Shown: piece after piece, positions 18,256 through 50,627 of the stretch | Layout: every line of letters begins with the position of its first letter | Numbering within the stretch: the first letter of the stretch is position 1 | Source: Porphyridium purpureum | Taxonomy: Eukaryota | Direction: 5' to 3' | Assembly (NCBI GenBank): GCA_008690995.1 | Contig: VRMN01000003.1 | Coordinates: 1 to 64,000, forward strand | Length of the DNA: 64,000 bases | Notes under the pieces: model-generated | What the model saw: the letters and a program-made list of their open reading frames with translations, nothing else | Told to the model about the DNA's origin: nothing | The model's database searches: none | Made by a program: the position numbers and the translations under genes

Positions 18256-19410
18256 GCTTATCTTCCGGGATACCGCTAGACGTGCCTTGATATCGTTCTA
18301 TATCATTTCAGAGGGGTGGGTGCCAAGCGTGTACTTTTTGGGGCGTTGTCGCGTGTTTCGGATCAGGCGATCAAACGGGAGGACACGCGCGCGGAAGCAT
18401 AAGCCTGCAAGAAAAGAAAGAGCAGAAGAAAGTAAACAGAAAGGTGAGCGGTCGGCGAAGGAAATGAGTTAGTACTCTGCGCTTCTTCGCGGGCCTGTGG
18501 GACTGACACTTATGAAATACACTTCGAAACCTGGCTCGAGTAAACCGCGTCACAGCAAATGCCCGTAAGAAGCAGGCACATTCCCTAAGCACGAAGAGTG
18601 TCCAGACTTAATGCAGAAGAAACCGCTACACATGTTTACTTGGACACAGTGGGCATCAACGCCGATTGCATGCTCTGGATCGCAAGCCCCTACTTCCATC
18701 TTCTTTCAACCGACAAGCATAAGCGCAATCATCGTTAGAGTGTTCATGATTACGAGTGGAACTGGGAAGTGAACAGAGAACACGGCGGCAGATGTACGGG
18801 TAGCCGAAGGTTACCGGAATTAAAACATTCAAGTGCCGGATTACGCACAAAGCAAGGCCACGATAGTCAGCATCCACACGTGCTCATGAAGACACGCCGA
18901 CTTCGATGCGTCCAAAACGTAGGGCAAGGAGTGCTCCAAACTTACCTGGCATAACTAATCGGATCGCCTTGAGAAGCTGCGCGATCTGTCGCTTAATACC
19001 TTGGTCGTGTTGAGTCGCTTCTTCGCTCAGCCCAACTGAAATGCGAAATATGTTGACCGGCATACGCGGACGAACAAGAGAAAGAAAGTAACAACAGCGC
19101 GCACGGGGTTATGATTGCGCTGGTCAGACTCCGCTCAAAATTGCTCAAAGAAGGAGATACCATGAAACAGGAAGGAGACGCAGACAGATGCTCCTTGCCT
19201 CGCCATGGTTCCCGCGCAACGTACCTTTGTCTAGAAACCGTTGCTCGTGAAGGATTGTGACCGAGTTGGCGAACAGCAGGAACGCTTGGAAGACAAGAAA
19301 GAGCGTTAGAGCCATTTGAACGTCCGTGCTGCCTGTTCAGACTGCGACGCGCACATCACCGCAATAGCGCCACGGTCGACATCCACAAAGTTTGATGTGC
19401 CGGCAGTTAC

Positions 19411-19717
19411 TGTTCGGAAACCTCGCTCTTCTGATGGACAACCTCCAATCCAACGACCAAGTTTATCAAGTTCTAAACGTATAACTTTTCCAACTCGCAC
19501 TCCCTACCGAAGCCCACCGCGCTCGCGCTCAGCACCGAGCTTCGCGCGCGACTTATAAGCCAACGGACCCATTCTCCTACGCTCCTACCGCCGGCCAACA
19601 ACCGCAGCCGAGAGTTTCCCTTCTCAAGTCACGTCCCTTATCAGTGATCAGCTTAACGGCTTAACGACTAAAAGTTAACCACTAACCGTTAACCGCCATG
19701 CTCCACACATCTTAACA
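19411..19717 (-). repeat. Copia 3' LTR
   Basis: TG...CA termini; matches 43099-43405 except at 3 positions. Confidence 0.95.
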
Positions 19718-20408
19718 CACTCCCTCCTTGGCGCGTGTTGTCATAAGCAACGTGTTTCGTGCTCGCGGAGCCGAGCAAGTTCGCACGGTGCTTTTCAAAG
19801 ACCTTGCCCTGGAGAGGTTTCGTTAACAGATCTGCGGTCAGATCTTCGGTTGGGCAATACACGACGCGTATGTCGCCTCTATCCGCTGCGTCGTGCACGA
19901 CGAAATACCGGATTCCGATGTGCTTTGTCCTCATGGAGGTTGGCTTGCCGTGTTTCATCAGCGCTATGGCAGAGTTGTTATCTTGAAGCAACACACTCTC
20001 TTTGAGCTCGAAGCCTTGATCGCGAAGGAACCGCGCCGTCCAAAGCACCTGCCCGAGACTGTCGCTGGCAGCGACAAGTTCGGCTTCTGTCGAACTTTTT
20101 GTCACAAGCTTCTGCTTGCTGCTCCTGGCGTACACAGCCCCGGTACCCAACGTGACCGAAGTCCCCGTGACCGACCTATAGTCGTCGCATGCACCGTACG
20201 ACGCGTCCGCACCGCAGACCACTGTTTTCTCCGTGCTCGCTCCAAGTCGCAGACCCATTTCTTGGGTGGCTGCCAAATACTTCATGACACGCTCCAGCTT
20301 TTGCCAATCGCGAATGTTCGGCTCGTGCACCCTCGTCGTCAGATACCCGACGGCCGTAAGGATGTCTGGCCTCACGCGTTTGGCTACGTACAACAGCTTC
20401 GCTGTCCA
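19689..20408 (-). pseudogene. pol: Copia pol fragment: end of RT and RNase H
   Basis: RVRPDI, ADASY, SSTEAELVA, QDNNSAI, RTKHIGIRY, ADLLTKPL. The stop lies inside the 3' LTR. Confidence 0.93.
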
Positions 20409-20493
20409 TGTTATCCGTTCGACCCCAGTCACCTAGAACGGTTCGGTTAATCCGAAACCGGTAAGCCGTTAAACCGGTAGACCGTTTAACCGT

Positions 20494-20608
20494 TTCTAGA
20501 AGCTTCTAGAGGTTCCAGAACCTTCTAGACGCGCGCAGAAATGCCAATGGTTTGCATTGTCATTTCTCTTGGCGCCTTGCTGTCCCTGGCGGAAGTAAGG
20601 GTATAAAA
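20494..20608 (+). promoter_or_regulatory. Heat-shock-element array and TATA box in the Gypsy A LTR
   Basis: TTCtaGAAgcTTCtaGAGgTTCcaGAAccTTCtaGAC at 20494-20530; TATAAAA at 20602-20608. Present in all four family A LTRs. Confidence 0.75.
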
Positions 20609-25000: not shown

Positions 25001-25461
25001 GCGAAGGGTGGAGGCCTGCGCGCGACGGACAGACAAAGGACATGGCGGAGCACTGGTTTCGCCTGTGCAAAGTCCATGAAGAAGTCCGCGACAATTTGAT
25101 CGAAGCCCAGGGGAGAATGCAGAAGTTCTTCGATCGACGCAAGGATGCCCGGGAGTTTCAAGTTGGTGATCAAGTGTTGGTCACGGCGCCGCAACTGCGG
25201 CCGAACAAGAGTGATTTGGAGGCACCAAAGTTTCTTGGTCCGGTGCCTGTCATTGAGAAGGTAAGCTCGCATGCTTACCGAGTGGTTTTGCCTGAGGGTG
25301 TGGCTTGTCATGATGTTTTTCCGATCCAACATCTGAAGCCATACTATGGACGCGAAGACTACATGGCAGGGGAAAATGATGAAGAAGTACCCGACGAAAT
25401 GCCGGCGTCCGATTCTGAGCCAGACTTGATGAAAATTATCGAAGAGTCTGACTCTGAATGA
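22069..25461 (+). CDS. pol: Gypsy A1 Pol (PR-RT-RH-IN), in the -1 frame relative to gag
   Basis: LIDSGAT, YLDD, TDH, HHCC, DDE core, GPV motif; slippery A AAA AAC at 22063-22069. Confidence 0.95.
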   Translation, partial: RGARVERFLGQSEGKEARRRYETSRGGNEDRCGGLGKPRSGCPTPCGRNSSANQPVIKELGGMGAAMLLRVRGKVHKSDGEATFLIDSGATDNFMSVDFVLKSDGLKQKASWKRDHVTLADGSVLETAGEVSNVKFTLSDGYSGTANFAICRIAGQDAILGMEWLKRENPVIDWQSGMLAYGEKRAWSMTQMLVPRKELRRLLKSQEVEECYLGVLKGREEPCSVERKEADSVKKMLNDFENLFEEPRGLPESRTVEHVIRLKDEKPVRVGRVYRLSPAELKVLRETLDDLLDKGFVQPSQSPFGAPVLLVKKKDGSMRMCVDYRALNDATVKDRYPLPNMDELLDRLGAAHCFSKLDLASGYHQLRVRREDVPKTAFQTRYGQFEFRVMPFGLCNAPATFQRAMNELFADLLDKTVIVYLDDILVFTKDRQSHAEVLKEVLSRLQKAGYRLKRKKCSFFVSEVEYLGNIVGNGCVKMDPRKVEALRDWPVPKTVTELRSFLGMTNWFRRFVKGYSTVVAPLTSLLQNAKSKKQLIELGDEGKSAFEKIVGMLTEAPVLALPDPEKPFEAYTDRSEVAVGGWLAQEGRPVAFTSRKLLDRETRYSSYEGELMAVIHCLREFRPYLYGAKFVLHTDHEALKHLMTQKELNGRQARWLDFLAEFDIIIDYVKGKSNVVADALSRKPELHALEYQVRCEEFGTSFQAFVGSYSSDPDFGTLMGNLPTHQGFRTEAGLLYLRNRVCVPRKFRERVMQLHHDIPTAGHRGADTTYASLITRFYWPKMKRDVSRFVKTCHACQVTKSENRSFGKLKPLSIPEGPWVDISMDFVTELPRSEGSCDAIMTVVDRYSKMALFIPTRKDLTAKRCADLFVKHVVSRFGYPKSIVSDRDPLFTSTFWQQLSKRVGMKLAMSTANHPQTDGQTERVNRVIREMLKLMATNSGWVRDLPLYEFAYNSAPSSATGFAPFKVVYGRDPWFPPSEGWRPARDGQTKDMAEHWFRLCKVHEEVRDNLIEAQGRMQKFFDRRKDAREFQVGDQVLVTAPQLRPNKSDLEAPKFLGPVPVIEKVSSHAYRVVLPEGVACHDVFPIQHLKPYYGREDYMAGENDEEVPDEMPASDSEPDLMKIIEESDSE

Positions 25462-25881
25462 CTTGGGTATTGTGAGAAGTTTGCTAGGCAGAGGTTTTCT
25501 CCCGGAGCGCGGGTTCCTCGAGCCAAGAATGCAACTTAGTTTGAAGTCTCGCCGAGACGTCGAGCCAAGAGGGGGGGAGATGTTATCCGTTCGACCCCAG
25601 TCACCTAGAACGGTTCGGTTAATCCGAAACCGGTAAGCCGTTAAACCGGTAGACCGTTTAACCGTTTCTAGAAGCTTCTAGAGGTTCCAGAACCTTCTAG
25701 ACGCGCGCAGAAATGCCAATGGTTTGCATTGTCATTTCTCTTGGCGCCTTGCTGTCCCTGGCGGAAGTAAGGGTATAAAAAGGCGACGCGCCTGCCCGGA
25801 CTAGCCGGTCAGGTCTTGCTCGGAGAGAGAAGAGGTAAGAAGAAGACGCAGAGAGTAAAAAAAGGCACAGCATTGGTAACA

Positions 25882-26641
25882 TTCCACGTGTGGAAATCGT
25901 CTTTCTTATCTCTTGTGAGCCTTTCGGTCGATCCCACTTCGTACAGGTCAGTACCTGCCGGCGTGCGCGCCCGTCCACTTGCACCAAACTCGCTCAGCAT
26001 GGTGCCGATGTATCCATTCATGCTAACCAGCACAGTGGCTGTACTTCTGTCAAATGCAAAGCGCATACCCAGGTACTCGACAGTATCCCCCTGCTCTCTC
26101 TGCAGTCCTGGGTACCTGCGCTCGATTTCATCCAACACAATTTTCACCTCGCGCGCGGACGGAGCGAACACGATTATGTCGTCAACGTGTATTGCGAGCG
26201 ATACATTGCCGCGTCTGAATACGCACTCGTCGAATCGATTCTGCGAAAAGCGCAGTTCTTGCAACATCTTTTTTACCGTCAGGAACCACTGGCGCGCGGC
26301 CATGATTGTTCCGTACAGCGCCTTTTTCAAAACGCACACCAAGCCGCCATCGGAGCGCACGTAACGAAGATACTTGTCGTCTAGGCCACATAACACCCTC
26401 GTCAGGTACCTGTCCAACCTCACGTGTACCTTTGGACCATCAGGAGGCATTAGTGCATTCAAGAACGCACCGGGAAAGTCAGCCTTACCCACAGCGTACT
26501 TTGCGTTGGCTGCTATTGCTGCGAGCAATAACAGACTATCTGTGGCAACAGTCGGTGACGACTTCTTCGGGTACACTGCTGGATCCTGGTGATTGCCTCC
26601 CGCTACAACTCTGGCTTTGATTTTCTGGATCGATCCATCTG
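25882..26641 (-). pseudogene. pol: Copia pol fragment: RT core
   Basis: KIKARVVAGG, DFPGAFLNA, LKKALYG, DECVF, HVDD, YLGM. Confidence 0.93.
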
Positions 26642-32099: not shown

Positions 32100-34649
32100 A
32101 TCTGCGTCAAGCTTCTCTCTGAGAAATATGTGAGTGGGTAGGATCTGCTTCCTCTCAGCCTCTGACAGGCTCTGCACACTCACGGGAGTGATAACCCCAA
32201 AGCCATACTTACTATCCAGTTGCGCAACCTCCTTGACGACCGCACGGACCGCTTTCAAGCCATGCTTTCGGAAAGCCGACATCAGACTCATGTTTGCTGT
32301 AAGACCCTTCTTATTCGCAGACAGCACAAAGGCTCGTCCTTTTTTGGCGTCCGCTTTGTGAGACTCTTCGTCATCCGCCCAGTCCTCACTGCTCTGCTTC
32401 CGCTTTCCGGTTTTGCTCCGATCATTCTTCTCTGTCCTTTTCTGTATTTCCACTATTTCCTTTTCACGCTGATCAATTTCGTCAATCCTGCGTTGCAGCT
32501 TGGCCACTTTCTCGGCGATGTCTTCTGCTCTCACAGAGCCGTTGGCTCGCGCCCTCTTTCCCGCCAGCTTCACCATGTGCTCGTCGATGTATGTCGCTGT
32601 GCTTGTTCTTGTCAGCGGATCAACAATGACCTCTGGCTCGCAACCGTTCCGACCACCTGACGTGCTCATGTCTGAAAGCCGCTGGTCGTTCAAAGCGCTC
32701 GGTGCAAGCGTGCTGCCTTGGTATTCTTGCCGAATCGCTGGACTTGCTTCGGGTGCTGTGGCGCGAGGCACAATCTGTGAGGCAGATGGAATAAAATGTT
32801 GCTGTCCAGGTCCTTGCGTGCTCGTCGGCGAGCGCGTCTTTGCGGTACCCAGCGGCGCTTGCATTCTAACAGTGAGCTGCGATCGCAGAGCTCTAACGTC
32901 TTGTTGCGGACTACTATAACTCTCCGCGGGGCTTTGTTCGGTTGGAATGCGCGTCTCAGTTCCGAGTGCCTCCTGCGCTGCATTACTGGCTACCTCTGCT
33001 GTGCACAGCTCTTCCAGGACTGGATCGCCTTGTGCTTGGCGCGCGTTCTCTTCTGCCGTTTCCACCGAGGCGTCGCCGTCCTCATCCGCTTCCACCACAA
33101 CAAGGTCGACATCTTCCTGTGCCGCTGCGTTCAGCTCCGGCCGATCTTGCTCATCGATTAGCAAGCCCTCCACGTCCTCTTCTTCGTCGTCATGCGGCTG
33201 GTCCTCAATATCTATGACGACACCACTCGCACTCTGTTGCTCAGCAATTTCGTTCATCCTGGATATAACGAAGTCTGGATGCGGTAACTGGTTCCACTTC
33301 TGTCGCGTGATGATGTTCTTTGTATTGAGGTTGTAGAACAGCCATGATCCGGCCAGGTTTAAGGTCGGACGCAGCGCGATGCATCCTGTCGTTCGTTCGG
33401 CCATTGTGCTGTCGACGCTCTTGCTGTGCGACTGGCAATAGTCTCCAAATCCGAGTGCTAGCTCCTTCTTCGCGTCAACCAGGCGCCCTGTCAGATCCTC
33501 ATATGGCGATCGCCCATCGTACTCTGGCGCAACGGAGCTTTTCATCATGTTTATGCGCTGCACTACATACTCAGCCAGGAACCCGGTTAGGCTCTTCGGC
33601 ATTCGGAATGGTAAGCCGCTCAGGACGCACCGCATTCGCTCTTTCACCATTCTGATGGCCCTTTCTGCGGGCTGGACAGCCTCGCCTGCGGCCAGTATGT
33701 CTGGGATCACACCATTGCTTTTCATCCAGTCAACTGCGGCCACAATTCCGCTCTCTGGGTCGCTGCGGATCTCGACAACTTTTGCACCGAAGCTTTTCAA
33801 GCTAGCGAACTGCTTATGCAACGCCTCTTGCAGATGATGAGCGCTCTTGCTCGTGACACGATCCAGCAATATATATTGCATGGGCTTACACACGCTCACA
33901 ACGAACACATAGCCGTCTACAAACATTAAGTCTGTGCGCAGTGATATTTCGCGACTCATCCGTGCTTGACAGGACTCCTGCTCGATCGGGCTTTTGTGGC
34001 CGGTGGCTCGTCCTTTTAGAACCGGTACCGCGGGGCCCCAGATTGTCTCCGCGCGATCTACGTCACGCGCGCTCACCTCGCAATTCATTATGCCGCCATT
34101 TCTCAGTGCGTCTCTCAAGTTTTTGAGTGACGGATATGCCATCCTGCGCGCCAAATCGCGCGCCGCTTTTGCGCTTGCCACCTGTCTCGGCGAAAAATCA
34201 TTTTCTCGTTCCGCAGCTGTTCCTTCGAGCAGCAGTGTTTTGCCTATGGTGATTGGGAGTGTGGTAGTGTAGATGTGGTCTGCGCGCGGACGGAACGTAA
34301 AGATGCTTTTATCGTAATAGAGTCTAAATGTATTAGACCTATCATGAAAGAGCACTTTATGCCCGTCAGCACGCAACCGTCCCAGGCTGAGTACGTTTCC
34401 GCAGACCTTGCGCGAAAGGTAGACAGTGCCAAACTCACTGTCCCCAATACATGCGATGCGCACTGGCTTTGCCGAATTGATGCCGTTCAACAATAGCGTT
34501 TTCGCTGCGCGCCTCGTGTTTTTCACGAGGTCACGGTCGCGAAAGACGTGGTCGCTGGAGCAACTGTCAATCCCGATTTCTCCTACTGCAAACGTCTCAC
34601 CTGTGCAGACAGTCGCGCGGTGCTGCTTTGGCAGCAACGCGCCGCGCCG
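32100..34649 (-). pseudogene. pol: Copia pol fragment: protease, integrase, linker and start of RT
   Basis: IDSCSSDHV, RTDLMFV, IRSDPE, AERAIR, SPYE, FGDY, FLREK. Confidence 0.9.
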
Positions 34650-34898
34650 TCAAATGTCGCTCCCCGACTCACTTCCACCTGTCGCCTCATCGTCGTCTAC
34701 GGCCACCATCGTAGTGCTGCGCTCTTTCTTCTTTGCCCTCAGGGCTTTCTTCATCTCTTCAACTTCCTGGCGAAGAGTGACCACCACGTTTGGTTCAGTG
34801 CAGTCCGATTTGAAGTGGCCCATCCTCTGGCAATTGTAGCAGCGCACCCGGCTCACATCCACCTTGCGCTTCACGGGTTTGCTGCCGGAATGAGGTTC
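34650..34898 (-). pseudogene. gag: Copia gag 3' fragment with zinc knuckle and terminal TGA
   Basis: CYNCQRMGHFKSDC; joins in frame to 42152-43085 after removing the 4-bp TSD. Confidence 0.9.
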
Positions 34899-35089
34899 TG
34901 TCACGAACCGTGCTGGCCCAGGACACCGCGGCACACCCAACAGCAAGCCAAGCGGCACACGCACGCACACAAGCTGGACAATCCACGCAACCAAGAGGAA
35001 ACACAAGACACCCGCAGTCAACTGGACCTGCGGCAGGCAGGAAACCCGGAACCAACGACGCTCACGCACGCTGCTCACACGCGAACAGC

Positions 35090-35215
35090 CAAGAGCACCC
35101 ACACACGGGACCGACAGAACCAACCAAGAGCAGACACACGGGAAAGACACAGCCAACCAAGAGCACACGCACGGAGCAGGCACAGCCAACCAAAAGCACA
35201 CACACGGAAGACGCG
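35090..35215. repeat. About four degenerate 33-35-bp tandem units in the chromovirus LTR (also at +6193)
   Basis: Units start CAAGAGCA/CAAAAGCA at 35090, 35125, 35158 and 35191. Confidence 0.8.
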
Positions 35216-35486
35216 CGTAACGGGGGAACCAGGCGTCCGCTGCCCAACCGGGATCCCGTTCGGCCACACCTTACGGTGATCCGGGACCCGGGGAGGCGTT
35301 GTGGGCAGCCGGGGTTAGCCGGAGGAGGTTGCCTCACCTTTCGGCTTCAAACGGCCTATCACTCCTTTATCCGCCCCCGCCCACGTACCACCCCCGGATC
35401 CGCTTCCGCACAAGGACCGTCTAACGACGCCTTACCCCAGGGCATCCGCGAACCTTCCCCGTTAAACCCCCCGCTCGCTCGCTCGC

Positions 35487-35552
35487 GCTGTACTCCCGCC
35501 GTACCCCCGCCGTACCCCCGCTGTACTCCCGCTGTACCCCCCCTGTACCCCC
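35487..35552. repeat. Six 11-bp tandem units (GCYGTACYCCC) in the chromovirus LTR (also at +6193)
   Basis: Read directly from the sequence. Confidence 0.85.
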
Positions 35553-36197
35553 CCTCCCTCAACAGGTACCCAAGGCCCGAACACGCTTCCTTGAATACAC
35601 CTGTTTTTACTTAGATCCCCCTTAACCCTTCTGTCTCCCGACCCCCCTCTCCCCCCCCCTTGGTTGCCGACCCGCGCGTCCTTTTTATACCCATCGCGAC
35701 CACTGTACCCCCGAGGTACAGTGCCTTGCTGTCGCTGAGTCTAGAACCTTCCAGAAGGTTCCAGCCACCTCCTGGCTGTACACCCATTCCATACTGGGTG
35801 GTCATCGCGCGTCTGGTCCCTAAGGGAAGGGGCCTTCAGGCCTACCACGCGCCCCCTTGTACACCTACAGTACAGTGGGTCCGGCGCGACCAGGTATCCG
35901 GCCACGGACTATGGCTATTTTTAATCATTTCCTTAACACACGGGCTACTCCCGTGACATCCCACCCTCTCCGCTTCCCAATGTCAGGTATCACATGGTCC
36001 GAAGCTTCCGGAGAGTCACTTCATACTTACAGCACATGCCAATGCTTGACGCGTCCGGCATCCACGTCTCAAGCTCGATGTCGCCCGTGCACTGGCCATC
36101 GGCTTCGTGTGCCCGTCTTGGCATCGTAAGTACTCGAAGAGGACGTCCGTCCACGTGGCCCTCCACCCGGCCGGTGTGTCCGAGGTTCCGCCACTGG

Positions 36198-39100
36198 TCA
36201 CGCGTCACGGTAGGCAGCCACCATCATTGGTGGCAATGCGAGCTCAGGTTCCCACGTATCCCCACGTTTACCGAGTCCTCGCCATCTAACTCTGTACTCT
36301 CGGCATCCGCCCACAACCCGATCCCCGGCTATAGCCTCTATAGCCCAGCTGCCGTCTTCTCCTTGCAAGACTTGGGATCCACTTGCCTCAATGAGGTCCT
36401 TGTGGGCCCGAGCAAGCCGGTTCACGTGGACCAGCTTCCCGTCAGGATGGCCTTCACTGCACAGTACTGCGTGAACCCCGACCATTCTCAGGATGGATAG
36501 TGGTCCTACCCACGGCTTTTTCAGCTTGCGCCCTTCTCCTGAAGGCGGCGCCCAAACGTACACCACGTCGCCCGGCTTGAAGTCATGTTCCCTGACTCGG
36601 CGATCATAGTTCTTCGTGTACCGATCCTGTGCGATCTTCGCATTCTTATTGGCAATGGCGTGACATGCAGCAAGCTTCTTCGCGAGGTCATCTGCTTGTT
36701 CAACAGCTCTGGGTCCCGCCATACTTGCCCAGTCCCGCGCCGGCTCACCATACAACAGTTCAAACGGAGACATCTTCGTGGATGCATGCCGGGCTGTATT
36801 ATACGCATACACCATTACCGGCAACCAGCGATCCCAGTCTTTTCCGTTCGCACACACGTATGCCGACAACATTTGACACACTGTCTGGTTAAAGCGCTCC
36901 ACAACCCCGTTCGTCTGCGGATGGTATGCTGTCGTAAGCATACGTCCTACACCCAGATTTTCACACATTTTTGAAAGGATGTCGGCTACAAAGCCCGGTC
37001 CCCGGTCGGACAGCAGAGACTCTGGCGGTCCAAAATCGCACCCCCAACCGTCTAGGAAAACACGTGCCAGTGTAGCCGCAGTCTCATCCTTGACTGCATG
37101 GGCACGAACCCACTTTGTGAAGGCGTCCACCATGATTACCACTTTGCTGTGCCCGCGAGTTGTTGTCGGTGTGATACTCAGAACATCTATCGAGACAATC
37201 TCGAAACGTCTCACTGCGCGATAGACTTGCATGCGAGCCCTTCTCGGGGGCGCCTTTGTTTTCCTTGAAAAGCACTCATGGCAACAAAGAACAAACTGAC
37301 GAACATCTTCCGTCCAACCGGTCCACCAGTATCGTGCATCCGAGACCCGCTTTGCAGTCTTTTCTATTCCAAGGTGCCCTGAAAGTGGCGTGCTGTGATA
37401 CACATGCAGAACGCGCTGCACCAGAGCGTTTGGTATCACGACCCTGGACTCATCGCGAAGCATAGCCCAGATGACTCCATCCTCATCAACGGTGTACTCC
37501 GGGTACGTGTATTCGGGCTTGTCTGCTTTCAGATTCTTCAACTGTTCCTGAATGTCCGTGTCGTCTGCGTATGCAGCCACGATCTCTTCCATCGAAGGTG
37601 GTGTGTACGCATCGTTCGCTTCTGTATGCTCGCCAGTATGAAGCAGCAGCTCTCGCACTCCGGCCGATGTGACAGGGACCATACCCCCATCGGCCCCCGA
37701 AGCTGGACCCTGAATCTCTTCCTGCAGCATTTCAGCCAACCGAACTACCTGCTTCACTTCCTCATCCTCAACAGCATTCAGTCCAATGAGCTCGATTTCG
37801 CTCGTGTTGTTGAGAGTCTCAGACTTATTGCTCTCGCTCGCCACCCGAGCCTCTTCCCCATTCATACGTACAGCTGGACGCGAAAGCGCATCTGCCACTG
37901 TATTCGCCTTGCCCGGATGATGCTGAACCTGGAAGTCGAAGTCCTGTACCTTGAGAATCCATCGCGCAATCCGACCTTGAGGCTCCTTTTGCCTCATGAG
38001 CCAGCTCAATGCGCTGTGGTCAGTCATGAGCACGAATCGTTTGCCGTACAAGTAATGCCTGAAGTGCTCCATGGCTGCAATGGCGGCCAAGCACTCCTTC
38101 TCCGTCACGGTATAGTTCTGCTCGGCCGGTCTCAGAAGCCTCGAGTAAAATGCCACTGGACGATCGCCAGTACCCTCCCTCTGCGTCAACATTGCTCCCA
38201 AGCCAGTGCTAGAAGCGTCTGTCCACAGCGCATGCTCTGCTTCTGGGTCGTATGCAGCCAAAACCTTTCGATCTCCAGTTTCTGGATCACTGAGTGCTTC
38301 CCGAAGCGATAGAAACGCCTGACTCTGAGGCTCACCAAATCGTGCCTGCCAATCCGCCGAGTTCATAGGGTATTTCTTCCACTTGCTTCCTTTGGCGTTG
38401 ATTTGAAGCCCCTTCATAGCATCCCTAAGAGGTCTGCAGACTTCCTCAAATCCCTCGATAAAATTGCGGAACCACCCCACGAGCCCAATGAACTGCTGCA
38501 GTTCCTTTGCATTCCTCGGCTCCTGCCATGCTCGCACAGCCTCCGTCTTCCTCTGGCTCGGCCTTATACCGTCCAGGCCGATATCATGTCCAAGAAACTC
38601 GACCCTTAAAGCCCCAAATCTGCACTTCGACAATGAGAACACCAAGCCCGCAGCGCAGAATTGCTCCAGCACCCGCTGCAGCGCTTGCAAGTGCTCTTCA
38701 AACGTCTTTGTCCCGATTGCCAAATCATCAATGTAAACCAATGCATTCAGGTACCTGAGCGGGCCCAGGACCGTATTTGTCAATCGCTGGAAGGTACTTG
38801 GGCTATTACAGCAACCCTGAGGCAATCGGCAGTATTGAAACAGCCCGTCCGGAGTGATAATCGCTGTCAATGGTCGGCTCTCGGGGGCCAGAGGGACCTG
38901 GAAGAAGCCATCCTTCAGATCCAGGATACTCTTGAACTTCCACGATGCAAACCAGTCGATCATCTCTCCCACGTCCGGAATGGGATATCGATCTTTGACA
39001 GTCGCATCATTAAGCGTTCGGAAGTCTGTCGTCAGACGCCAGCCGCCATTCGGCTTCTTGACCATGACATTCTGGCTCGACACATCTGACAAACTCGGCT

Positions 39101-39977
39101 CCAGCACTCCTCGGGCGACCAGCCCTTGCACCATCTCGCGCTCAGCCTGCGTCACTGCAGGAGCCCTGCGACGTAACCTTGCCCTGGGGAGATCCTCCAA
39201 ACGCTCTGCCTTGATGCGGATCGTATGCTCGACGAGGTCTGTCTTACCCAGCTCCGGCCGGAAGAGAACCCAAAACTTCTTCAAGAGCCCTTTCATCTCC
39301 CTGCTTTGCGCTTCATCCAAATGCTCAAAGATCTTGGCTTCAATGGTAGTACAAACAGCCTCGTTGTGACCCGCATACTTTTCTTCGAGGGCCTGGATTC
39401 GCTTCTTCACTTCTGCTCCATCAGCAATATAGTGCACCGCCTCCAACTGCACCGTGGGTTTGGCTTCCTCATACATCGATCCCAGGATCCTGTGTCTTTC
39501 CAGGCATGTATGACACACGGCTTCCTGTGCACTGGAAATTTCTCGGTTGACAAAAGTAATCCATCCGCCCGAGCGTAGGCCCAGACCCTTTCCCGGGATC
39601 AAGTAACTGACATGCTTGGCAAGAAAACGCATTCCCAGTATGAGATCAGGTCCGAGGTTCCTCATAATCCGGACGCTTTCCTCCGACTGAATTCCCTCAC
39701 CAACCCAAATTATGGCAACGCTCTCCTCGGCCTCCCCCAACACCTCATTGGTTGGGCCCAATGCCTGTGTGTGGGTCTTTCTGCGAAGAAGCCCAAGACG
39801 GTCAGCCAAATCGTCGTTCATCCACGTGGATAAAGCCCCCGTATCAACCAGCGCAGTAGTCCGAACCTTCAGACCTCCCCATTCAGCCTGTACGTCTATC
39901 CACGGATACGAGCCCAGTGGGACTGCCTCCGACAATTCTTCAGATTCCGGGGGGCCTTCGCATCCCCCCGCTACTCG
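36198..39977 (-). CDS. pol: Chromovirus Pol (PR-RT-RH-IN-chromodomain), in the -1 frame relative to gag
   Basis: LVDTGA, YIDD, TDAS, HHCC, DDE core, WVGP; C-terminal WAIEAI...EYRVRWRG...DTWEPE chromodomain. Confidence 0.95.
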   Translation of the reverse strand, partial: RVAGGCEGPPESEELSEAVPLGSYPWIDVQAEWGGLKVRTTALVDTGALSTWMNDDLADRLGLLRRKTHTQALGPTNEVLGEAEESVAIIWVGEGIQSEESVRIMRNLGPDLILGMRFLAKHVSYLIPGKGLGLRSGGWITFVNREISSAQEAVCHTCLERHRILGSMYEEAKPTVQLEAVHYIADGAEVKKRIQALEEKYAGHNEAVCTTIEAKIFEHLDEAQSREMKGLLKKFWVLFRPELGKTDLVEHTIRIKAERLEDLPRARLRRRAPAVTQAEREMVQGLVARGVLEPSLSDVSSQNVMVKKPNGGWRLTTDFRTLNDATVKDRYPIPDVGEMIDWFASWKFKSILDLKDGFFQVPLAPESRPLTAIITPDGLFQYCRLPQGCCNSPSTFQRLTNTVLGPLRYLNALVYIDDLAIGTKTFEEHLQALQRVLEQFCAAGLVFSLSKCRFGALRVEFLGHDIGLDGIRPSQRKTEAVRAWQEPRNAKELQQFIGLVGWFRNFIEGFEEVCRPLRDAMKGLQINAKGSKWKKYPMNSADWQARFGEPQSQAFLSLREALSDPETGDRKVLAAYDPEAEHALWTDASSTGLGAMLTQREGTGDRPVAFYSRLLRPAEQNYTVTEKECLAAIAAMEHFRHYLYGKRFVLMTDHSALSWLMRQKEPQGRIARWILKVQDFDFQVQHHPGKANTVADALSRPAVRMNGEEARVASESNKSETLNNTSEIELIGLNAVEDEEVKQVVRLAEMLQEEIQGPASGADGGMVPVTSAGVRELLLHTGEHTEANDAYTPPSMEEIVAAYADDTDIQEQLKNLKADKPEYTYPEYTVDEDGVIWAMLRDESRVVIPNALVQRVLHVYHSTPLSGHLGIEKTAKRVSDARYWWTGWTEDVRQFVLCCHECFSRKTKAPPRRARMQVYRAVRRFEIVSIDVLSITPTTTRGHSKVVIMVDAFTKWVRAHAVKDETAATLARVFLDGWGCDFGPPESLLSDRGPGFVADILSKMCENLGVGRMLTTAYHPQTNGVVERFNQTVCQMLSAYVCANGKDWDRWLPVMVYAYNTARHASTKMSPFELLYGEPARDWASMAGPRAVEQADDLAKKLAACHAIANKNAKIAQDRYTKNYDRRVREHDFKPGDVVYVWAPPSGEGRKLKKPWVGPLSILRMVGVHAVLCSEGHPDGKLVHVNRLARAHKDLIEASGSQVLQGEDGSWAIEAIAGDRVVGGCREYRVRWRGLGKRGDTWEPELALPPMMVAAYRDA

Positions 39978-40912
39978 TTTTTTGTCTGGCGTTCTTCGGT
40001 CCTCTGCCTCTTATTTTTCTCCCACTTTGGGCACTCCATGCGAACGTGGCCCCGCTCCTGGCACTCCCAGCACTTGACCAGTCGCTTGCGAGGATTCAAC
40101 CCAGGGAGCCCAGCTTCATCAAAGTTACCCAAATGGTGCACGCGCTCGGGCTTCCTCACTGCCCTTACACCGTACTGCGAGCCAAGCGCACCAAAGGTTC
40201 CATACTGACCAGCCTCCTCCAACAGAGCAGTCTTCATCAAGGTCCAGTTTCCCTGTATGCCATACGTCCTGGCCTGACGACGCAGCTCGGAGTTTTTCGG
40301 AAGCGCCAACGTAAGTGCCTCAATCTTGCGAGTGTCAGATTCTCCCAGAGCCGTGCAGCGATCCTCCAGAACCTCCACGAATTTCTTCAGGTCCTGGCCA
40401 ATAACATACTCAACATCGTGATGCTCTGCACGAAGGGCGCGCTCGTGCTCCTTGTTGTAGAAGTAAGCAGCCACTGCCGCCCATGCCTCTTGTGCTGTTG
40501 CACCGTGCAACTCCGACAGGACCTCGTAGCATTTCCTCAGCCCCACCCCGCGGAAAACTGCATCAATCGAGGATACATGTTGGTCTGGATCCTCTCCCAT
40601 GTCACGCAGGCGATTGAACCAGACCATCTTGGCGGTCAGAAAAAGTGGATCACCGGCCTTCTCAATCTGCACGCCCGCGTCACAAATAGCCTGGCCCAGT
40701 TGAGAACGAATCTTGCCGCGCACAATGGCGGGGACACCCTCTTCCTTCTGCTGAACACTCACAACCCCATGACTTCCTATCTCGTCACCACGAGCCGTGG
40801 GCATTGTCGGCTCTGGTGCCAGCGCGCCAGCCTGTGCACGTTCCAGCTCGCTCGAGGACGCGTGCTCTCGCGCATCGTCTGAGCCCATCGTCGTCTTCCT
40901 GCCACGCACCAT
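39971..40912 (-). CDS. gag: Chromovirus Gag
   Basis: Lies between the 5' LTR and pol; zinc knuckle CWECQERGHVRMEC. Confidence 0.88.
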   Translation of the reverse strand: MVRGRKTTMGSDDAREHASSSELERAQAGALAPEPTMPTARGDEIGSHGVVSVQQKEEGVPAIVRGKIRSQLGQAICDAGVQIEKAGDPLFLTAKMVWFNRLRDMGEDPDQHVSSIDAVFRGVGLRKCYEVLSELHGATAQEAWAAVAAYFYNKEHERALRAEHHDVEYVIGQDLKKFVEVLEDRCTALGESDTRKIEALTLALPKNSELRRQARTYGIQGNWTLMKTALLEEAGQYGTFGALGSQYGVRAVRKPERVHHLGNFDEAGLPGLNPRKRLVKCWECQERGHVRMECPKWEKNKRQRTEERQTKNE

Positions 40913-41874
40913 TTCTGCGACTTCGTTCCTGCTCCGAATCCTCTCTCGCAATCCTTCACTCGGTGACCGTACGTATCAGAATGTGGACACAAGTTTGCCC
41001 AAGATCAAGACCGATCTCACGTCCACACCCCACCCTCTCTCGCACCAACGTCAGATGCCACGCAATCCTGGAAGATAATTTCCGGAAATTATGTCACGAA
41101 CCGTGCTGGCCCAGGACACCGCGGCACACCCAACAGCAAGCCAAGCGGCACACGCACGCACACAAGCTGGACAATCCACGCAACCAAGAGGAAACACAAG
41201 ACACCCGCAGTCAACTGGACCTGCGGCAGGCAGGAAACCCGGAACCAACGACGCTCACGCACGCTGCTCACACGCGAACAGCCAAGAGCACCCACACACG
41301 GGACCGACAGAACCAACCAAGAGCAGACACACGGGAAAGACACAGCCAACCAAGAGCACACGCACGGAGCAGGCACAGCCAACCAAAAGCACACACACGG
41401 AAGACGCGCGTAACGGGGGAACCAGGCGTCCGCTGCCCAACCGGGATCCCGTTCGGCCACACCTTACGGTGATCCGGGACCCGGGGAGGCGTTGTGGGCA
41501 GCCGGGGTTAGCCGGAGGAGGTTGCCTCACCTTTCGGCTTCAAACGGCCTATCACTCCTTTATCCGCCCCCGCCCACGTACCACCCCCGGATCCGCTTCC
41601 GCACAAGGACCGTCTAACGACGCCTTACCCCAGGGCATCCGCGAACCTTCCCCGTTAAACCCCCCGCTCGCTCGCTCGCGCTGTACTCCCGCCGTACCCC
41701 CGCCGTACCCCCGCTGTACTCCCGCTGTACCCCCCCTGTACCCCCCCTCCCTCAACAGGTACCCAAGGCCCGAACACGCTTCCTTGAATACACCTGTTTT
41801 TACTTAGATCCCCCTTAACCCTTCTGTCTCCCGACCCCCCTCTCCCCCCCCCTTGGTTGCCGACCCGCGCGTCC

Positions 41875-41954
41875 TTTTTATACCCATCGCGACCACTGTA
41901 CCCCCGAGGTACAGTGCCTTGCTGTCGCTGAGTCTAGAACCTTCCAGAAGGTTC
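41875..41954 (-). promoter_or_regulatory. Heat-shock element and TATA box in the chromovirus 5' LTR
   Basis: GAAccTTCcaGAAggTTC at 41937-41954 (four perfect alternating units); minus-strand TATAAAAA at 41875-41882. Confidence 0.75.
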
Positions 41955-42151
41955 CAGCCACCTCCTGGCTGTACACCCATTCCATACTGGGTGGTCATCG
42001 CGCGTCTGGTCCCTAAGGGAAGGGGCCTTCAGGCCTACCACGCGCCCCCTTGTACACCTACAGTACAGTGGGTCCGGCGCGACCAGGTATCCGGCCACGG
42101 ACTATGGCTATTTTTAATCATTTCCTTAACACACGGGCTACTCCCGTGACA

Positions 42152-43085
42152 GTTCATCCTCATCGTTGCTTTCGTCTTCTTCACGTCCTGCCACAAAAGT
42201 TGTACCGACCCGTGGGACCGCTCCAACTGGAACGACTTTATAGTTTGAAACTGCTCGCACAATCTCATTCACTGTGTCCAGTACCGCGCCCGTGTTTTGC
42301 AGGTGCACTATGGTGTTTCTGTGCGCTCCCGAAATCTCGAGCTTGCGCGCGAAGTCGGCAGCCAGCCTCTTCGCGTCTCCTGTGTGCTCGCCAACGGCAT
42401 CCATGGCTCGCACTGTCGCGTCGAACCTGGCTCGAAAATGCACGAGCGACTCACCCGGTTCCATTGCCAGCTTGTGGAACATTTCCGCCGCATACAGCTG
42501 ATTCTGAACAGCGCTGTCAGATCCGAGCGTCATGTGCACTGCAAGCACCTGCTTGGCGAGCTCCAGGGGATCGTTGGCAGAAGCTGCCAGCTCATCGAAT
42601 GAGCCCATGCGCTTCAGTGCGTCTACAGACGCTTCACTCAGCTGCCCCACGATCACGGCAAACACCTTCGGTTTGGCCTCTTCGAGCTCCCGGACTTTCT
42701 TATGGTAGCTCTGCATGACTATGCGCACGTTCTCGGCCTTGACGAGAGCTGCGACATCTTGAGGGAGGCCCGACAATTCTGCCGCTGCGAATGCCTCTGC
42801 AGATGGAGGATTTGCTGTTGGGTATTCCATTCCATGCTCGCTCAGATCGAAGATACGTCCAACTTCTCCAAAGTGGAGCCTGACGTAGTTCCCCAACTCT
42901 TTGAACCAAGCGACCACAGTGTAGGCGGGGGTGGATCCGCGCGCCGTGTACTTTAACAACGGCAGTTCCGCCATCGCCCCCTTCTCCCGAGCGGTGGTCA
43001 GGTGGTGCCCTTTTCCGCGGCCACGCGATCCTCCTCGCGCCGCCGCTCCCCTGGCTCCTCCCGCTGCACCGCCTCTCGTTGACAT
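42152..43085 (-). pseudogene. gag: Copia gag 5' fragment
   Basis: ATG 13 nt after the 5' LTR; RGG-rich N-terminus; capsid-like LAMEPGESLVHFRARF. Confidence 0.88.
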
Positions 43086-43098
43086 GATTATACGTTTA

Positions 43099-43405
43099 AG
43101 TTCGGAAACCTCGCTCCGCTGATGGACAACCTCCAATCCAACGACCAAGTTTATCAAGTTCTAAACGTATAACTTTTCCAACTCGCACTCCCTACCGAAG
43201 CCCACCGCGCTCGCGCTCAGCACCGAGCTTCGCGCGCGACTTATAAGCCAACGGACCCATTCTCCTACGCTCCTACCGCCGGCCAACAACCGCAGCCGAG
43301 AGTTTCCCTTCTCAAGTCACGTCCCTTATCAGTGATCAGCTTAACGGCTTAACGACTAAAAGTTAACCACTAACCGTTAACCGCCATGCTCCACACATCT
43401 TAACA
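43099..43405 (-). repeat. Copia 5' LTR
   Basis: Direct repeat of 19411-19717; ends in CT, not CA, on the element strand. Confidence 0.95.
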
Positions 43406-43738
43406 GTTACCCTGCGGTCAAACGGCAGAGCAGTACATTGCACAGTACCTCCAATCGACGAAACACTCAAATGAAAGATGGTGAGCGAGTAGATGACGAG
43501 TCGGTGACTCGTCTTTCGGTGCAACGCAGTATTGAAAAATTTGTACATTTTATTTCGTTCGACTCGCCAAGTTTCAAGCCTTCAGACGAGGACTCTCGAA
43601 TCTCGCCCGCATTTGGTGCTGGTCGCGCAGATGCGTCCTTGCTGAGTTTTGCGCTGCGACTCTGATGAACAGAAGCCCTACCACATTTCAACGACATCCC
43701 TCCGGCCCCTGTCACCCTTGCTAGCCTGCAGTGACAAC

Positions 43739-44206
43739 TTACTGGATGTCAATCACGCGAGTCGCAGACGACTCGACGTACTCACGCTTCGGCAGCTCAA
43801 TTGAGACAATGCCGTCCTTTGCAGAGGCTGCAATCTTGTCGACCATAATATCATTCCCAAGGTCCATGCTCTGCTCGAACGCGCGCGAAGAAAAGCTGTG
43901 CATGGGGCCATCCGCTCGGCCTTCCGAACTCTCTAATTTACCGCTCACCTTGAGAACATTGTCCTTGACCTCCAGCTTAATGTTTTCCTTTGGAATTCCA
44001 GGCGCTTCAATGTTCACGACGAACTTGTCGTCAAATTCCTGCATCTCGCTCGGCGGTCCGACGAGCGTGGGGTCGAACATGCGGTTCCACTCGTTGCGCG
44101 CGCTACCAAAGGGAGCATCCATAATCTTGTCAATCAAGTCCCACGTGTTTCCTCGGCTGCCACGCAGCGAGGCCAGCGGTCCAAGTCCACGAGCACGAAG
44201 TGCCAT
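43739..44206 (-). CDS. HSP20: Small heat-shock protein (Hsp20/alpha-crystallin) 1
   Basis: EAPGIPKENIKLEVKDNVLKVSG...IAASAKDGIVSIELPK...IDIQ. Confidence 0.93.
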   Translation of the reverse strand: MALRARGLGPLASLRGSRGNTWDLIDKIMDAPFGSARNEWNRMFDPTLVGPPSEMQEFDDKFVVNIEAPGIPKENIKLEVKDNVLKVSGKLESSEGRADGPMHSFSSRAFEQSMDLGNDIMVDKIAASAKDGIVSIELPKREYVESSATRVIDIQ

Positions 44207-44981: not shown

Positions 44982-45473
44982 CTACTTAATTTCAATCAGG
45001 CGAGTGGCAGGCTCTTCGCGGCCGTGCTTCGGGAGTTCTATCGTAACAATTCCGTCCTTGGCTGACGCCGAAATCTTGTCAATGTCAACGTCATTACCAA
45101 GCGTCAGAGAACGATGGAAGGAACGCGCCACGTAGCCATGCGTAACTTTCTCGCCCTTTCCGTCGCCATTCTCGCCATCTTCCGTGACGTTCTCTTCCAT
45201 TCCGCCGCTGACCTTCAACACATTGTCCTTCACTTCCAGCTGAATTTTCTCCTTCGGAATGCCCGGCGCCTCAATGGTCATCACATACTTGTCGTCAAAC
45301 TCACTGAGAAGGCTTGGGGGACTTGCGCGCACAGGCTCCAGAAGACTGTTCCAGTCGTCGCGTGTCGTTCCAAAAGGCGCGCCCAGCAAACGGTCAATCA
45401 GTTCAAAGGTGTTTGCGCGACCCGTCGGGTACGCCAAATGCGAAGAAACTGCTGGACGCGTCCTCAACGCCAT
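44982..45473 (-). CDS. HSP20: Small heat-shock protein 2
   Basis: Close paralogue of Hsp20-1; starts MALR. Confidence 0.93.
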   Translation of the reverse strand: MALRTRPAVSSHLAYPTGRANTFELIDRLLGAPFGTTRDDWNSLLEPVRASPPSLLSEFDDKYVMTIEAPGIPKEKIQLEVKDNVLKVSGGMEENVTEDGENGDGKGEKVTHGYVARSFHRSLTLGNDVDIDKISASAKDGIVTIELPKHGREEPATRLIEIK

Positions 45474-46059
45474 TGGTGAGCTTGCACGCTTCGCCACACT
45501 CTTCGCAGCTTTTTCCTTGTTCCTCTTTGTCGACTTCGTCGCTAATCTCTTCACTACACTTGGTCGAATGTGGTACACTCTCATCCTGACGAAGATGGCC
45601 ACCCTCCATCGCGCGCCGGCTTCGACATGCACGTGCCGGCGCCCCTTTTTATGCTGTATTTCATCAAGACATTTGTAAGACAGGTGCACGTGTCTCTAGA
45701 CCTTTCGCAAATCTTCTCGTCTCGCTCCGACACAACGTTCGTTGCCGGCGTACGCAAAAAGCAGGCTTCCTTCATGAAAGTGTGTACACTTCCACATGTT
45801 TCCACAAAAATCTGGAATGGGCACGGAAGGCTCCGGCTTCTCGCATCGAATGACGATGCCTTGCTTGCTCCGGCGTGGCATGTCGTGGCATGGCGTGCTC
45901 GCACGGTTATAAAAGCCGGCGCCTGTCCACGCAGTTACCCGCTCCGGCGCGGAGTATCTGCAAGGCGAAGGTGAGTGGTGTGGAGAACAAAGTGTCCAGG
46001 GAACAAGGAGTCAGAGCATTTGCTTGCATTGATTGAGACTACCAGTGAAGCACACAATC

Positions 46060-49512: not shown

Positions 49513-50627
49513 CCCGCTGCGGGTGTACAGTCCGTGACCATTGCATCAGTTTATGCGCCGTGTCCGAACGTGGGCTACCTGCTTACTGCTCAACTTCAAA
49601 GCTTAGAAAAGCAGTGTACCTTCTTTTGTGTCGATGGCGAATGACCCGGGAGCGGATTCGTTCGAATGCCGGCGCCGTACGCGCACTGTCCGACTGCTGC
49701 TCGTACTGGTACTGCTGAGACGCCGCGCGTTTTTATGGTGGAAGGCGCGATTTTGTGGTGCTTGTGTGTTGCGGTGCGTGGGGGGTGGCTTTGTGCGTGC
49801 GGCGCTTCGTTATTCCCTTTTTTGGATGGGTGGTGGTGTGTTGGCGTGGTTGGTGTTCACGCAAACGTGCTGTTTCGGCGGCCGCTCAAGGAAAAACGCG
49901 CTTTGCACAATGCAGACGGTTTTTCGGTGCTGCTGCGCTTTGTGTGTGTGTGTGTGTATGTTAGTTTTGAAAGTGCATCTGTTGGCAGAACAAAGTAAAA
50001 TAGATTGAGGTGGCTCATTTGGGGAATAGGTGTGGAAGCTATGGAACGGTATACGCTTTCACTAGGGTAATAATGACGCTAGCGCTTTTGAGGGGGTGGC
50101 GGTGGTGGTGGTTGCGGCTAGTCTGTTTCGCGCCGCGCCCGCGCCCGCGCCGCTTTTGCGCACATCCACACAGAGCGTCATTGGGTTCAAAGGCGCTGTG
50201 TTGAGGTGTTCGTGACGCGGCGTGGCGGCCAGCGTGCCGAATTCTTCCCGCTCGATTGATTTTTGTCGTGCCGGCTCGTGCACATTCCGCCAGGTCGTGA
50301 GGACGCGTGCGCACACGCCAAGAAAGCAGCCTTGCGCGCGCACGCGTGACCCGGCCGGGGGGGAAAAAGCAACAAGCAAAGCAACATCGACTCAATTTTC
50401 ATTAGGCGTTCAAGTCCGGCCGATTGGCCTATCGCACGAGGGGGCGGTTGAAGGGAGGTGCAGGAGTGCCCATGCGAGCGTTCGGGTGCGGGCGCGTGGC
50501 GGACGGAGGAGGGGAACTGTGCTTCCGGGGACAGGCGGCGGAACGGGTGCAAACCTGGCGTTGTTCGCATCGACGTGCGCCGAGCTCGTCAGTGCAGCTC
50601 GCAGCGCTCACGCGGTGAACGGAGTCG

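What the first reader, a model, noticed from the sequence alone, without database searches (positions are those of the whole stretch)
43088..43172. Copia lacks a tRNA PBS and has an 11-nt site complementary to its own LTR (candidate self-priming)
Seen: directly after the 5' LTR the element strand reads TAAACGTATAA-TC-ATG, with no TGG. Its exact complement TTATACGTTTA lies inside the LTR (43162-43172), 63 nt from the U5 end and about 70 nt downstream of a TATAA (about 43241-43245). Known: S. pombe Tf1 (Gypsy) primes with the first 11 nt of its own mRNA. Self-priming in Copia elements has, to my knowledge, only been proposed. Inference: transcription starts near 43172 and the RNA folds back to prime reverse transcription.
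Basis: partly seen in the sequence, partly recalled or inferred. Interest (0 to 1): 0.8.

Follow-up and report, generated by a model that had tools for sequence, protein, structure and literature searches.

The report
Self-priming Copia element in red alga
A Copia-type jumping gene of the red alga Porphyridium has, where such elements normally bind a host tRNA, an 11-base site that matches its own terminal repeat, as do most of its distant relatives with different letters, so it likely starts copying itself with the front end of its own RNA, which here begins a few bases ahead of the matching stretch.

Summary
The 11 nt after the 5' LTR (43098-43088) are exactly complementary to 43172-43162 inside the LTR; there is no TGG; chance is about 6e-4. 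The element is a young Copia of Porphyridium purpureum (307-bp LTRs, GTAAC duplication), broken by three Gypsy insertions. Self-priming is well supported for the lineage. In 43 of 57 related loci with a leader, at least 11 nt after a CA pair perfectly with the locus's own LTR (shuffles 16 of 2280). The sites differ (39 distinct 11-mers among 43) and rarely match other elements' LTRs. In 32 of 41 relatives the arm begins at a TCA initiator-like motif. The predicted start at 43172 is not supported. RNA 5' ends, mostly from the identical 3' LTR promoter and from one study, fall at about 43175-43186, 3-14 nt upstream, and this element has no TCA at the arm. The primer would carry a 5' tail. Compensatory change inside Porphyridium could not be phased, host tRNAs were unavailable, and cleavage and priming are untested. 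Self-priming is shown for Tf1 and predicted for plant TAR Copia. This scan found the same signature before in diatom genomes; none of its notes on a red alga came up.

The parts
43099..43405 (-). 5' LTR of the Copia element, 307 bp, TG...C(T); family allele ends CA
43088..43098 (-). Primer-binding position, 11 nt, no TGG, complementary to its own LTR
43162..43172 (-). Complementary arm (candidate self-primer core) in the LTR
   Evidence: predicted pair probabilities 0.9-1.0 with a start at 43186
43178..43182 (-). 5' part of a predicted 5-bp in-register extension helix; only formed if the RNA starts upstream of the arm
   Evidence: p 0.91-0.99; prediction only, 5 bp could be chance
43078..43082 (-). 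3' part of the predicted extension helix, just after the gag ATG
43175..43186 (-). Main zone of RNA 5' ends (pile-up at 43186, a T|G step); reads come mostly from the identical 3' LTR (about 19487-19498)
43203..43203 (-). Minor pile-up of RNA 5' ends (T|G step)
43241..43245 (-). TATAA, the only one in the LTR; candidate TATA box
   Evidence: function inferred
43406..43410 (-). Target-site duplication GTAAC, 5' side
42152..43085 (-). gag, 5' part, cut by the Gypsy A insertion
32103..34895 (-). End of gag (CCHC knuckle), protease, integrase; holds the 72-nt intron-like stretch
34601..34672 (-). 72-nt GT...AG intron-like stretch with an in-frame TGA between gag and protease
   Evidence: splicing not tested on RNA
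25884..26641 (-). Reverse transcriptase core (RVT_2) between two Gypsy B insertions
19718..20407 (-). RNase H region, ending in the polypurine tract AAGGAGGGAG (19729-19720)
19411..19717 (-). 3' LTR, TG...CA, source of most LTR-derived RNA reads (read-out into the flank)
19406..19410 (-). Target-site duplication GTAAC, 3' side

Best explanation
This is a Copia retrotransposon whose 11 bases after the left LTR are complementary to its own LTR, and it likely primes reverse transcription with the front end of its own RNA, probably a roughly 25-base piece that carries a short tail ahead of the paired part. Shown: the complementarity, its position right at the LTR end, its recurrence with different letters across the lineage, and RNA 5' ends 3-14 nt upstream of the arm. 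Inferred: the RNA starts near 43186 and folds back so that 43172-43162 pairs with 43098-43088, possibly extended by 43182-43178 pairing with 43078-43082; a cut just after 43162, by analogy with Tf1 made by the element's RNase H, frees a 3'-OH on the primer site; RT then copies U5 starting from the terminal CA. This copy cannot move on its own (three Gypsy insertions), but copies with full-length 1671-aa gene models exist elsewhere in the genome.
For: Chance about 6e-4 for this element. 43 of 57 related loci with a leader have a perfect 11-27-nt match of the post-CA bases to their own LTR, against 16 of 2280 shuffles. Un-anchored test: in 40 of 50 non-redundant loci the longest inverted repeat is 11 nt or more, and 38 of those 40 begin at a CA (background 16%). 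Site-versus-other-LTR control: 12 of 1806 reach 11 nt, 8 of them between four near-identical pairs; 39 distinct 11-mers among 43; none starts with TGG. 15 of 16 chosen pairs, mostly tree neighbours, differ at 2-10 positions while both stay perfectly paired. The arm starts at TCA in 32 of 41 (background 9%). Porphyridium families form a clade (SH-aLRT 99) nested in this lineage (99). RNA 5' ends in X24: depth falls from 169 (43168-73) to 42 (43186-91); pile-ups at 43186 (11 of 50, 17 of 62). The arm:site helix is predicted at p 0.9-1.0 for starts at 43186 and 43203.
Against: The RNA 5' ends are mostly from 3' LTR read-out transcripts (227 of 232 sense reads in X24 carry 3' LTR alleles; 221 run into the 3' flank), from one study, ordinary RNA-seq and not packaged RNA; X23 showed no listed pile-up. 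Unlike most relatives, this element has no TCA at the arm. Within Porphyridium, a variant site (3 X23 reads, changed at 43098, 43094, 43090, 43087) and variant arms (X3 contigs, changed at 43167, 43168, 43170, 43172) could not be phased, and the arm changes expected for that variant site were not among the listed rows (24 rows hidden). 10 of 50 non-redundant relatives lack an 11-nt match. The 5-bp extension could be chance. No cleavage or cDNA was observed.
Confidence: 0.6

Rival explanations
1. Self-priming with strict Tf1 geometry: the RNA that is actually packaged and copied starts at 43172 (a minor start or a trimmed species), so the primer is just the first 11 nt.
For: In relatives the pairing begins exactly at the A of TCA in 19 of 41 and within 2 nt in 32 of 41. 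Some X24 read ends do fall at or below 43172 (depth 224 at 43144-49 against 169 at 43168-73). The helix also forms from a start at 43172.
Against: About 80% of the X24 depth at the arm start continues upstream (136 of 169), and about three quarters of it is lost between 43173 and 43191. No pile-up is listed at 43172, and there is no TCA there.
Confidence: 0.2
2. The helix is real but serves something else (closing the leader, holding back the gag AUG, packaging or dimerisation), and priming uses another molecule.
For: The predicted structure encloses the AUG at 43085 when the RNA starts at 43186. Fungal GalEa Copia elements have a conserved hairpin at the primer position with unknown mechanism (PMC5445492, passages). 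The RNA does not begin at the arm.
Against: A generic structural helix has no reason to end at the LTR's terminal CA (38 of 40) or to begin at an initiator-like TCA (32 of 41). The varied sites leave no common external primer.
Confidence: 0.12
3. A host tRNA fragment (half-tRNA or internal match) primes this element, and the LTR match is secondary.
For: Half-tRNA priming occurs in Copia lineages (Osser, Bryco, Bianca: PMC6317226), and an internal tRNA-Lys match is reported for FunCo1 (PMC5445492). The P. purpureum tRNA set could not be examined.
Against: No 17-mer in the complement of 43070-43112 forms an anticodon arm: those with Y32/U33/R37 have at most 2 of 5 stem pairs (0 of 27 pass). The one tRNA called in the window shares no 5-mer with the complement. 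39 different sites among 43 relatives each match their own LTR.
Confidence: 0.05
4. The match in this element is chance.
For: An AT-rich 11-mer; about 6 in 10,000 control positions do as well.
Against: The element sits in a lineage where most testable members show the same feature at the same place.
Confidence: 0.03

Closest known systems
Tf1/Tf2 of Schizosaccharomyces pombe and the Tf1/sushi group (Ty3/gypsy chromoviruses)
   Same: Primer site directly after the 5' LTR's CA, complementary over 11 nt to the element's own LTR transcript; no tRNA (PMC7175516 and PMC10085805, passages).
   Different: Other superfamily (Copia, IN before RT, no chromodomain). In Tf1 the primer is the first 11 nt of the RNA; here RNA ends lie 3-14 nt upstream of the arm. 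Tf1's three-duplex pretzel was not shown here; the predicted fold has an inner U5 stem and an outer 5-bp extension. Mechanism shown for Tf1, untested here.
TAR lineage of plant Ty1/copia (Houba, Osr-1)
   Same: Copia elements predicted to self-prime (89% of 203), by the same criterion of 10 nt or more of LTR complementarity starting 0-5 nt after the LTR; 5-bp TSD (PMC6317226, passages and supplement row).
   Different: TAR is described from plants. This element groups with aquatic-metagenome elements at about 40-45% RT-RH identity and is about 25-27% identical to the best-covered plant RE1/RE2-labelled proteins on hand. No TAR sequence was in the tree, so independence from TAR is not shown.
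Diatom CoDi elements and the self-priming 'diatom-type' Copia noted earlier by this scan
   Same: Copia elements of algae; the scan's notes describe the same post-LTR self-complementarity in diatom genomes (unchecked AI notes).
   Different: The host here is a red alga. The passages of PMC2806351 I saw describe CoDi lineages but no primer site ('tRNA' 0 occurrences). No CoDi reference was in my tree, and the hosts of my metagenome relatives are unidentified.
GalEa-like Copia (including CoPorcru1/2 of Porphyridium cruentum; fungal GalEa with a conserved hairpin site)
   Same: Copia elements reported from Porphyridium (PMC3587641); the fungal members also lack a tRNA primer site (PMC5445492).
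   Different: Metazoan GalEa have a TGG-type tRNA-Met site and a TRPDI motif; this element has no TGG and reads VRPDI. The fungal hairpin site is local and palindromic, with no LTR complement found; here the partner is 63 nt away inside the LTR.

Membership tests
Ty1/copia LTR retrotransposon | TG...CA LTRs with a target-site duplication | tested here: met
   307-bp LTRs, GTAAC duplication; family 5' LTR ends CA
Ty1/copia LTR retrotransposon | RVT_2-type RT, with integrase upstream of RT | tested here: met
   PF07727 E 2.4e-20; order read from the translation and tblastn of P0073; integrase identified by motif, no Pfam hit
Self-primed LTR elements (Tf1-type mechanism) | Site directly after the 5' LTR complementary (10 nt or more) to the element's own LTR, not to a tRNA 3' end | tested here: met
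   11 nt, no TGG; lineage-wide
Self-primed LTR elements (Tf1-type mechanism) | Primer is the very first bases of the transcript | tested here: not met
   RNA 5' ends mostly 43175-43186, pile-ups at 43186 and 43203, none listed at 43172; one study, mostly 3' LTR transcripts
Self-primed LTR elements (Tf1-type mechanism) | Complementarity kept through compensatory change | tested here: met
   Met among metagenome relatives (15 of 16 pairs); not phased within Porphyridium
Self-primed LTR elements (Tf1-type mechanism) | RNase H cleavage releases the primer, which is extended by RT | not testable with these tools
   Needs particles or purified RT
Self-primed LTR elements (Tf1-type mechanism) | Three-duplex pretzel structure | tested here: inconclusive
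   The predicted fold has an inner U5 stem and an outer extension, not the Tf1 arrangement as described
Tf1/sushi group | Ty3/gypsy chromovirus (RT-RH-IN order, chromodomain) | tested here: not met
   Copia RT and domain order; no chromodomain hit in P0073
TAR lineage (Ty1/copia) | Phylogenetic grouping with TAR RT-RH-INT sequences | not tested
   No TAR sequence could be brought into the tree
CoDi lineages | Phylogenetic grouping with named CoDi elements | not tested
   No named CoDi sequence was on hand
GalEa clade (metazoan type) | tRNA-Met primer site starting TGG; TRPDI motif | tested here: not met
   No TGG; VRPDI in the translation; definitions from PMC3587641 and PMC5445492
Half-tRNA-primed Copia (Osser, Bryco, Bianca) | Site complementary to a tRNA anticodon arm | tested here: inconclusive
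   The complement cannot form an anticodon arm; host tRNA set not available

The most novel reading that the evidence does not exclude
A large tRNA-independent Copia lineage reaches from unrelated aquatic eukaryotes into red algae and acquired self-priming separately from Tf1 and plant TAR. Its Porphyridium branch uses a roughly 25-nt primer with a 5' tail, cut out internally, which would show that a self-primer need not be the first bases of the RNA and that a Copia RNase H can cut an RNA-RNA duplex.
Probability: 0.35. Interest if true: 0.75.

Novelty: new variant of a known kind. Interest (0 to 1): 0.55.

Why it matters
Self-primed reverse transcription is demonstrated for the Gypsy element Tf1 and, in the papers I could search, only predicted for one plant Copia lineage. 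A second, widespread Copia lineage with strong covariation, present as young multi-copy families with an active LTR promoter in a culturable red alga with a small genome, makes Copia self-priming directly testable. It bears on whether tRNA priming is ancestral or late in LTR elements (raised in PMC3601003, passage). RNA ends from this element also suggest that the primer need not sit at the cap end. Annotation tools that require a tRNA primer site will mis-score these elements.

Tried and rejected
No whole genome is held, so host tRNAs and other Porphyridium copies could not be read. Viral contigs gave 83 pattern matches and no relative. An integrase-only alignment of 33 sequences was too diverse to search with. 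The idea that the 5' LTR ending CT and the 3' LTR ending CA reveals a special mechanism (for example a non-templated A) was dropped, because all junction-spanning records have CA. Reading the in-frame TGA as a read-through stop was set aside, because full-length gene models skip it within a GT...AG stretch. Rfam gave one weak match (mir-1471, 23.6 bits against a gathering score of 82) over a GC-rich LTR hairpin, taken as chance. Phasing arm and site variants from laid reads was not possible. Gypsy A and Gypsy B in the window have no self-complement (6 and 4 nt). Look-ups of earlier findings for this genome, by RT sequence, and for Porphyridium or red algae found none. The careful tree did not finish; the quick tree was used. 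The Tf1 review PMC6388632 is not held.

Full report
Setting. Cluster-mates of 3 window genes are named Porphyridium purpureum; 4 of the 10 proteins looked up were in the collection. No whole genome is held. Self-comparison and Pfam show a nest of elements. The outer element is a minus-strand Copia with LTRs at 43405-43099 and 19717-19411 (307 bp, 3 differences) and a GTAAC duplication. It is interrupted by one chromodomain Gypsy (about 34899-42151) and two copies of another Gypsy (about 20409-25881 and 26642-32099). The four Copia pieces match full-length 1671-aa P. purpureum gene models P0066 and P0073 at 93-100%, so the family is young and multi-copy, while this copy is dead.

The observation. 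The 11 nt at 43098-43088 are the exact complement of 43172-43162. There is no TGG in 43060-43110. 3 of 5000 dinucleotide shuffles of the LTR and 11 of 18,188 control positions reach 11 nt. Gypsy B in the same window has an ordinary site beginning TGGTATCA (its assignment to tRNA-Met is recalled) and no self-match. The window's 5' LTR ends CT, but all junction-spanning reads and contigs have CA, so the site follows CA directly. The 101-nt region folds with z -2.67 (1 of 200 shuffles as good).

Relatives. A search with the protease-integrase region found 298 representatives at E up to 1e-30; 8 of the 10 best that I looked up are other P. purpureum families. A 13-sequence alignment retrieved 79 metagenome loci (the best 80 of 523 confirmed) and 16 loci from prokaryote genome bins, presumably eukaryotic contaminants. 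38 of the 95 loci were dropped for lack of a recoverable leader. Most contigs are collapsed with a single LTR, so their LTR end is inferred. It was seen independently in L047 and L081 (repeat ends at the CA), ambiguously in L054, and not in L048. Of 57 loci, 43 have 11-27 nt after a CA that pair perfectly with their own upstream LTR, against 16 of 2280 shuffles. That scan is anchored on CA, so I repeated it un-anchored on 50 loci (4 near-duplicates, 2 with the leader inside coding sequence and 1 distant locus removed). 40 have a longest inverted repeat of 11 nt or more, and 38 of these begin at a CA (12 right after it, 25 including its A, 1 including both), against 16% background. Of the 10 that fall short, L023 and L024 have 9 nt, L045 and L047 have 8 nt then a mismatch, L019 and L069 are cut short at the 5' end, and L008, L013, L025 and L058 are unexplained. 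The sites are varied (39 distinct 11-mers of 43; none starts with TGG). They match other elements' LTRs at 11 nt or more in 12 of 1806 comparisons, 8 of them between near-identical pairs. The window's site reaches at most 9 nt in others' LTRs, and theirs at most 5 nt in the window's. 15 of 16 chosen pairs, mostly tree neighbours, differ at 2-10 positions while both stay fully paired. In 32 of 41 non-redundant loci with a match of 9 nt or more, the arm starts within 2 nt of the A of TCA (19 exactly), against 102 of 1126 background windows; that TCA is an initiator is recalled, not tested. In a quick RT-RNase H tree of 77 rows (SH-aLRT only), five P. purpureum families plus P0098 form a clade (99) inside a 66-row group (99) that holds all 55 loci placed, apart from plant RE1/RE2-labelled proteins. 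No TAR, CoDi or GalEa reference was included.

Where the RNA starts. Raw reads of three RNA runs from one study, and contigs of three other runs, were laid on the LTR. Reads are sense to the element by the usual library convention. They come almost wholly from the 3' LTR reading out into its flank: in X24, 227 of 232 sense reads carry the 3' LTR alleles and 221 of 267 laid reads continue into the flank. Depth in X24 falls from 196 (43162-67) to 169, 136, 75, 42 (43186-91) and 27 (43198-203). Ends pile up at 43186 (11 of 50 in X22, 17 of 62 in X24) and 43203 (6 of 25, 6 of 23), both T|G steps. None is listed at 43172, and X23 shows no listed pile-up. RNA-seq tends to lose the tip of a transcript (own knowledge), so the true start is at or above these ends. 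The element has no TCA at its arm. Folding from 43186 keeps the arm:site helix (p 0.9-1.0) and adds an in-register 5-bp helix, 43182-43178 with 43078-43082 (p 0.91-0.99), around the gag AUG; five pairs could be chance. Two relatives have perfect helices of 21 and 27 nt, so a long primer is within the lineage's range.

Within Porphyridium the laid reads show one variant site (3 X23 reads) and several variant arms (X3 contigs), but they cannot be phased. The arm changes expected for that variant site were not among the rows shown (24 hidden). This test is open and gave no support.

tRNA alternatives. There is no TGG. None of 27 17-mers in the complement forms an anticodon arm, and there is no 5-mer match to the single tRNA called in the window. 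The host tRNA set was unavailable. The lineage-wide pattern is the stronger argument: each element's site follows its own LTR.

Mechanism. Most likely the RNA starts near 43186, folds back, is cut just 3' of 43162, and the freed 3'-OH is extended across the terminal CA. Complementarity, position, covariation in relatives and RNA ends are shown; pairing, cleavage by RNase H and extension are inferred from Tf1. I put self-priming overall at about 0.8 (0.6 tailed primer, 0.2 strict geometry).

What is known. Tf1: the first 11 bases pair with the primer site and RNase H cuts between bases 11 and 12 (PMC7175516, passages); three-duplex pretzel (PMC10085805, passages). Levin's original papers were seen only as references there. 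Copia: self-priming predicted for TAR, 89% of 203 elements (PMC6317226, passages and one supplement row; only 5 small supplement files were held, so per-element data may bear on the comparison). Fungal GalEa have a hairpin site with no LTR complement (PMC5445492, passages). CoDi lineages are described without primer sites in the passages seen (PMC2806351); GalEa-like elements occur in Porphyridium cruentum (PMC3587641, passages). Searches (listings, plus the passages named) showed no report of self-priming Copia in red algae or diatoms; the library lacks most subscription journals. This scan's own notes list 32 findings with these words in at least 6 genomes; of the 8 shown, 7 name diatoms. 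I did not check those loci, and my RT query matched none of them, so identity of lineage is unverified.

Verdict. A real feature and a probable new variant of a known mechanism: self-priming in a Copia lineage not described for it in the papers found, here in a red alga, with RNA evidence that the primer would carry a 5' tail. Interest 0.55.

Noticed in passing
window 34601-34672 (-): A 72-nt GTGAGT...CAG stretch with an in-frame TGA lies between the gag knuckle and the protease. Gene models P0066, P0073, P0065 and P0070 skip it, while P0068 and P0074 stop in it. If spliced, unspliced RNA would make Gag and spliced RNA Gag-Pol, the reverse of the usual Copia arrangement (recalled). GTGAG at both ends means some copies could instead lack it as DNA. 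Two paper searches found nothing.
   Followed up: partly
window 41092-41075 (-): The chromodomain Gypsy A has no TGG after its 5' LTR either. It has an 18-nt perfect palindrome that includes the LTR's last A, with no complement in its own LTR (best 6 nt). This resembles the palindromic hairpin site described for fungal GalEa.
   Followed up: partly
window 19411-19717 and the flank below 19411: The 3' LTR drives abundant read-out transcription into the flanking host DNA, far above the level of internal element reads.
   Followed up: partly
window 19411-43405: Three Gypsy insertions, two of the same family 0.76 kb apart, sit in one young Copia in an otherwise gene-dense region; possibly targeting of silent chromatin.
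   Followed up: no
window 43739-44206 and 44982-45584 (-): Two Hsp20 genes lie directly upstream of the 5' LTR on the same strand, the nearer about 330 bp away.
   Followed up: no
relatives, e.g. L002, L004, L036, L080: In 25 of 37 relatives the pairing includes the terminal A of the LTR's CA, which looks more frequent than base composition would give (not tested); the window's family does not pair there.
   Followed up: no
window 42890-43120, X15 contig 2; 43404-43405, X15 and X23 loose ends: A related family's contig carries a poly(A)-like tail on the plus strand after 43120 (possible antisense transcript). Some reads join the upstream flank of the 5' LTR directly to the downstream flank of the 3' LTR, which suggests an empty-site allele in those strains.
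   Followed up: no
L080, L081, L084, L087, L089, L090, L093: Copia elements with this leader signature sit on short contigs binned into bacterial genomes in GTDB, presumably contamination.
   Followed up: no
window 49818-49894: The only tRNA call in the window (Thr-GGT) is a G/T-rich sequence that looks spurious.
   Followed up: no
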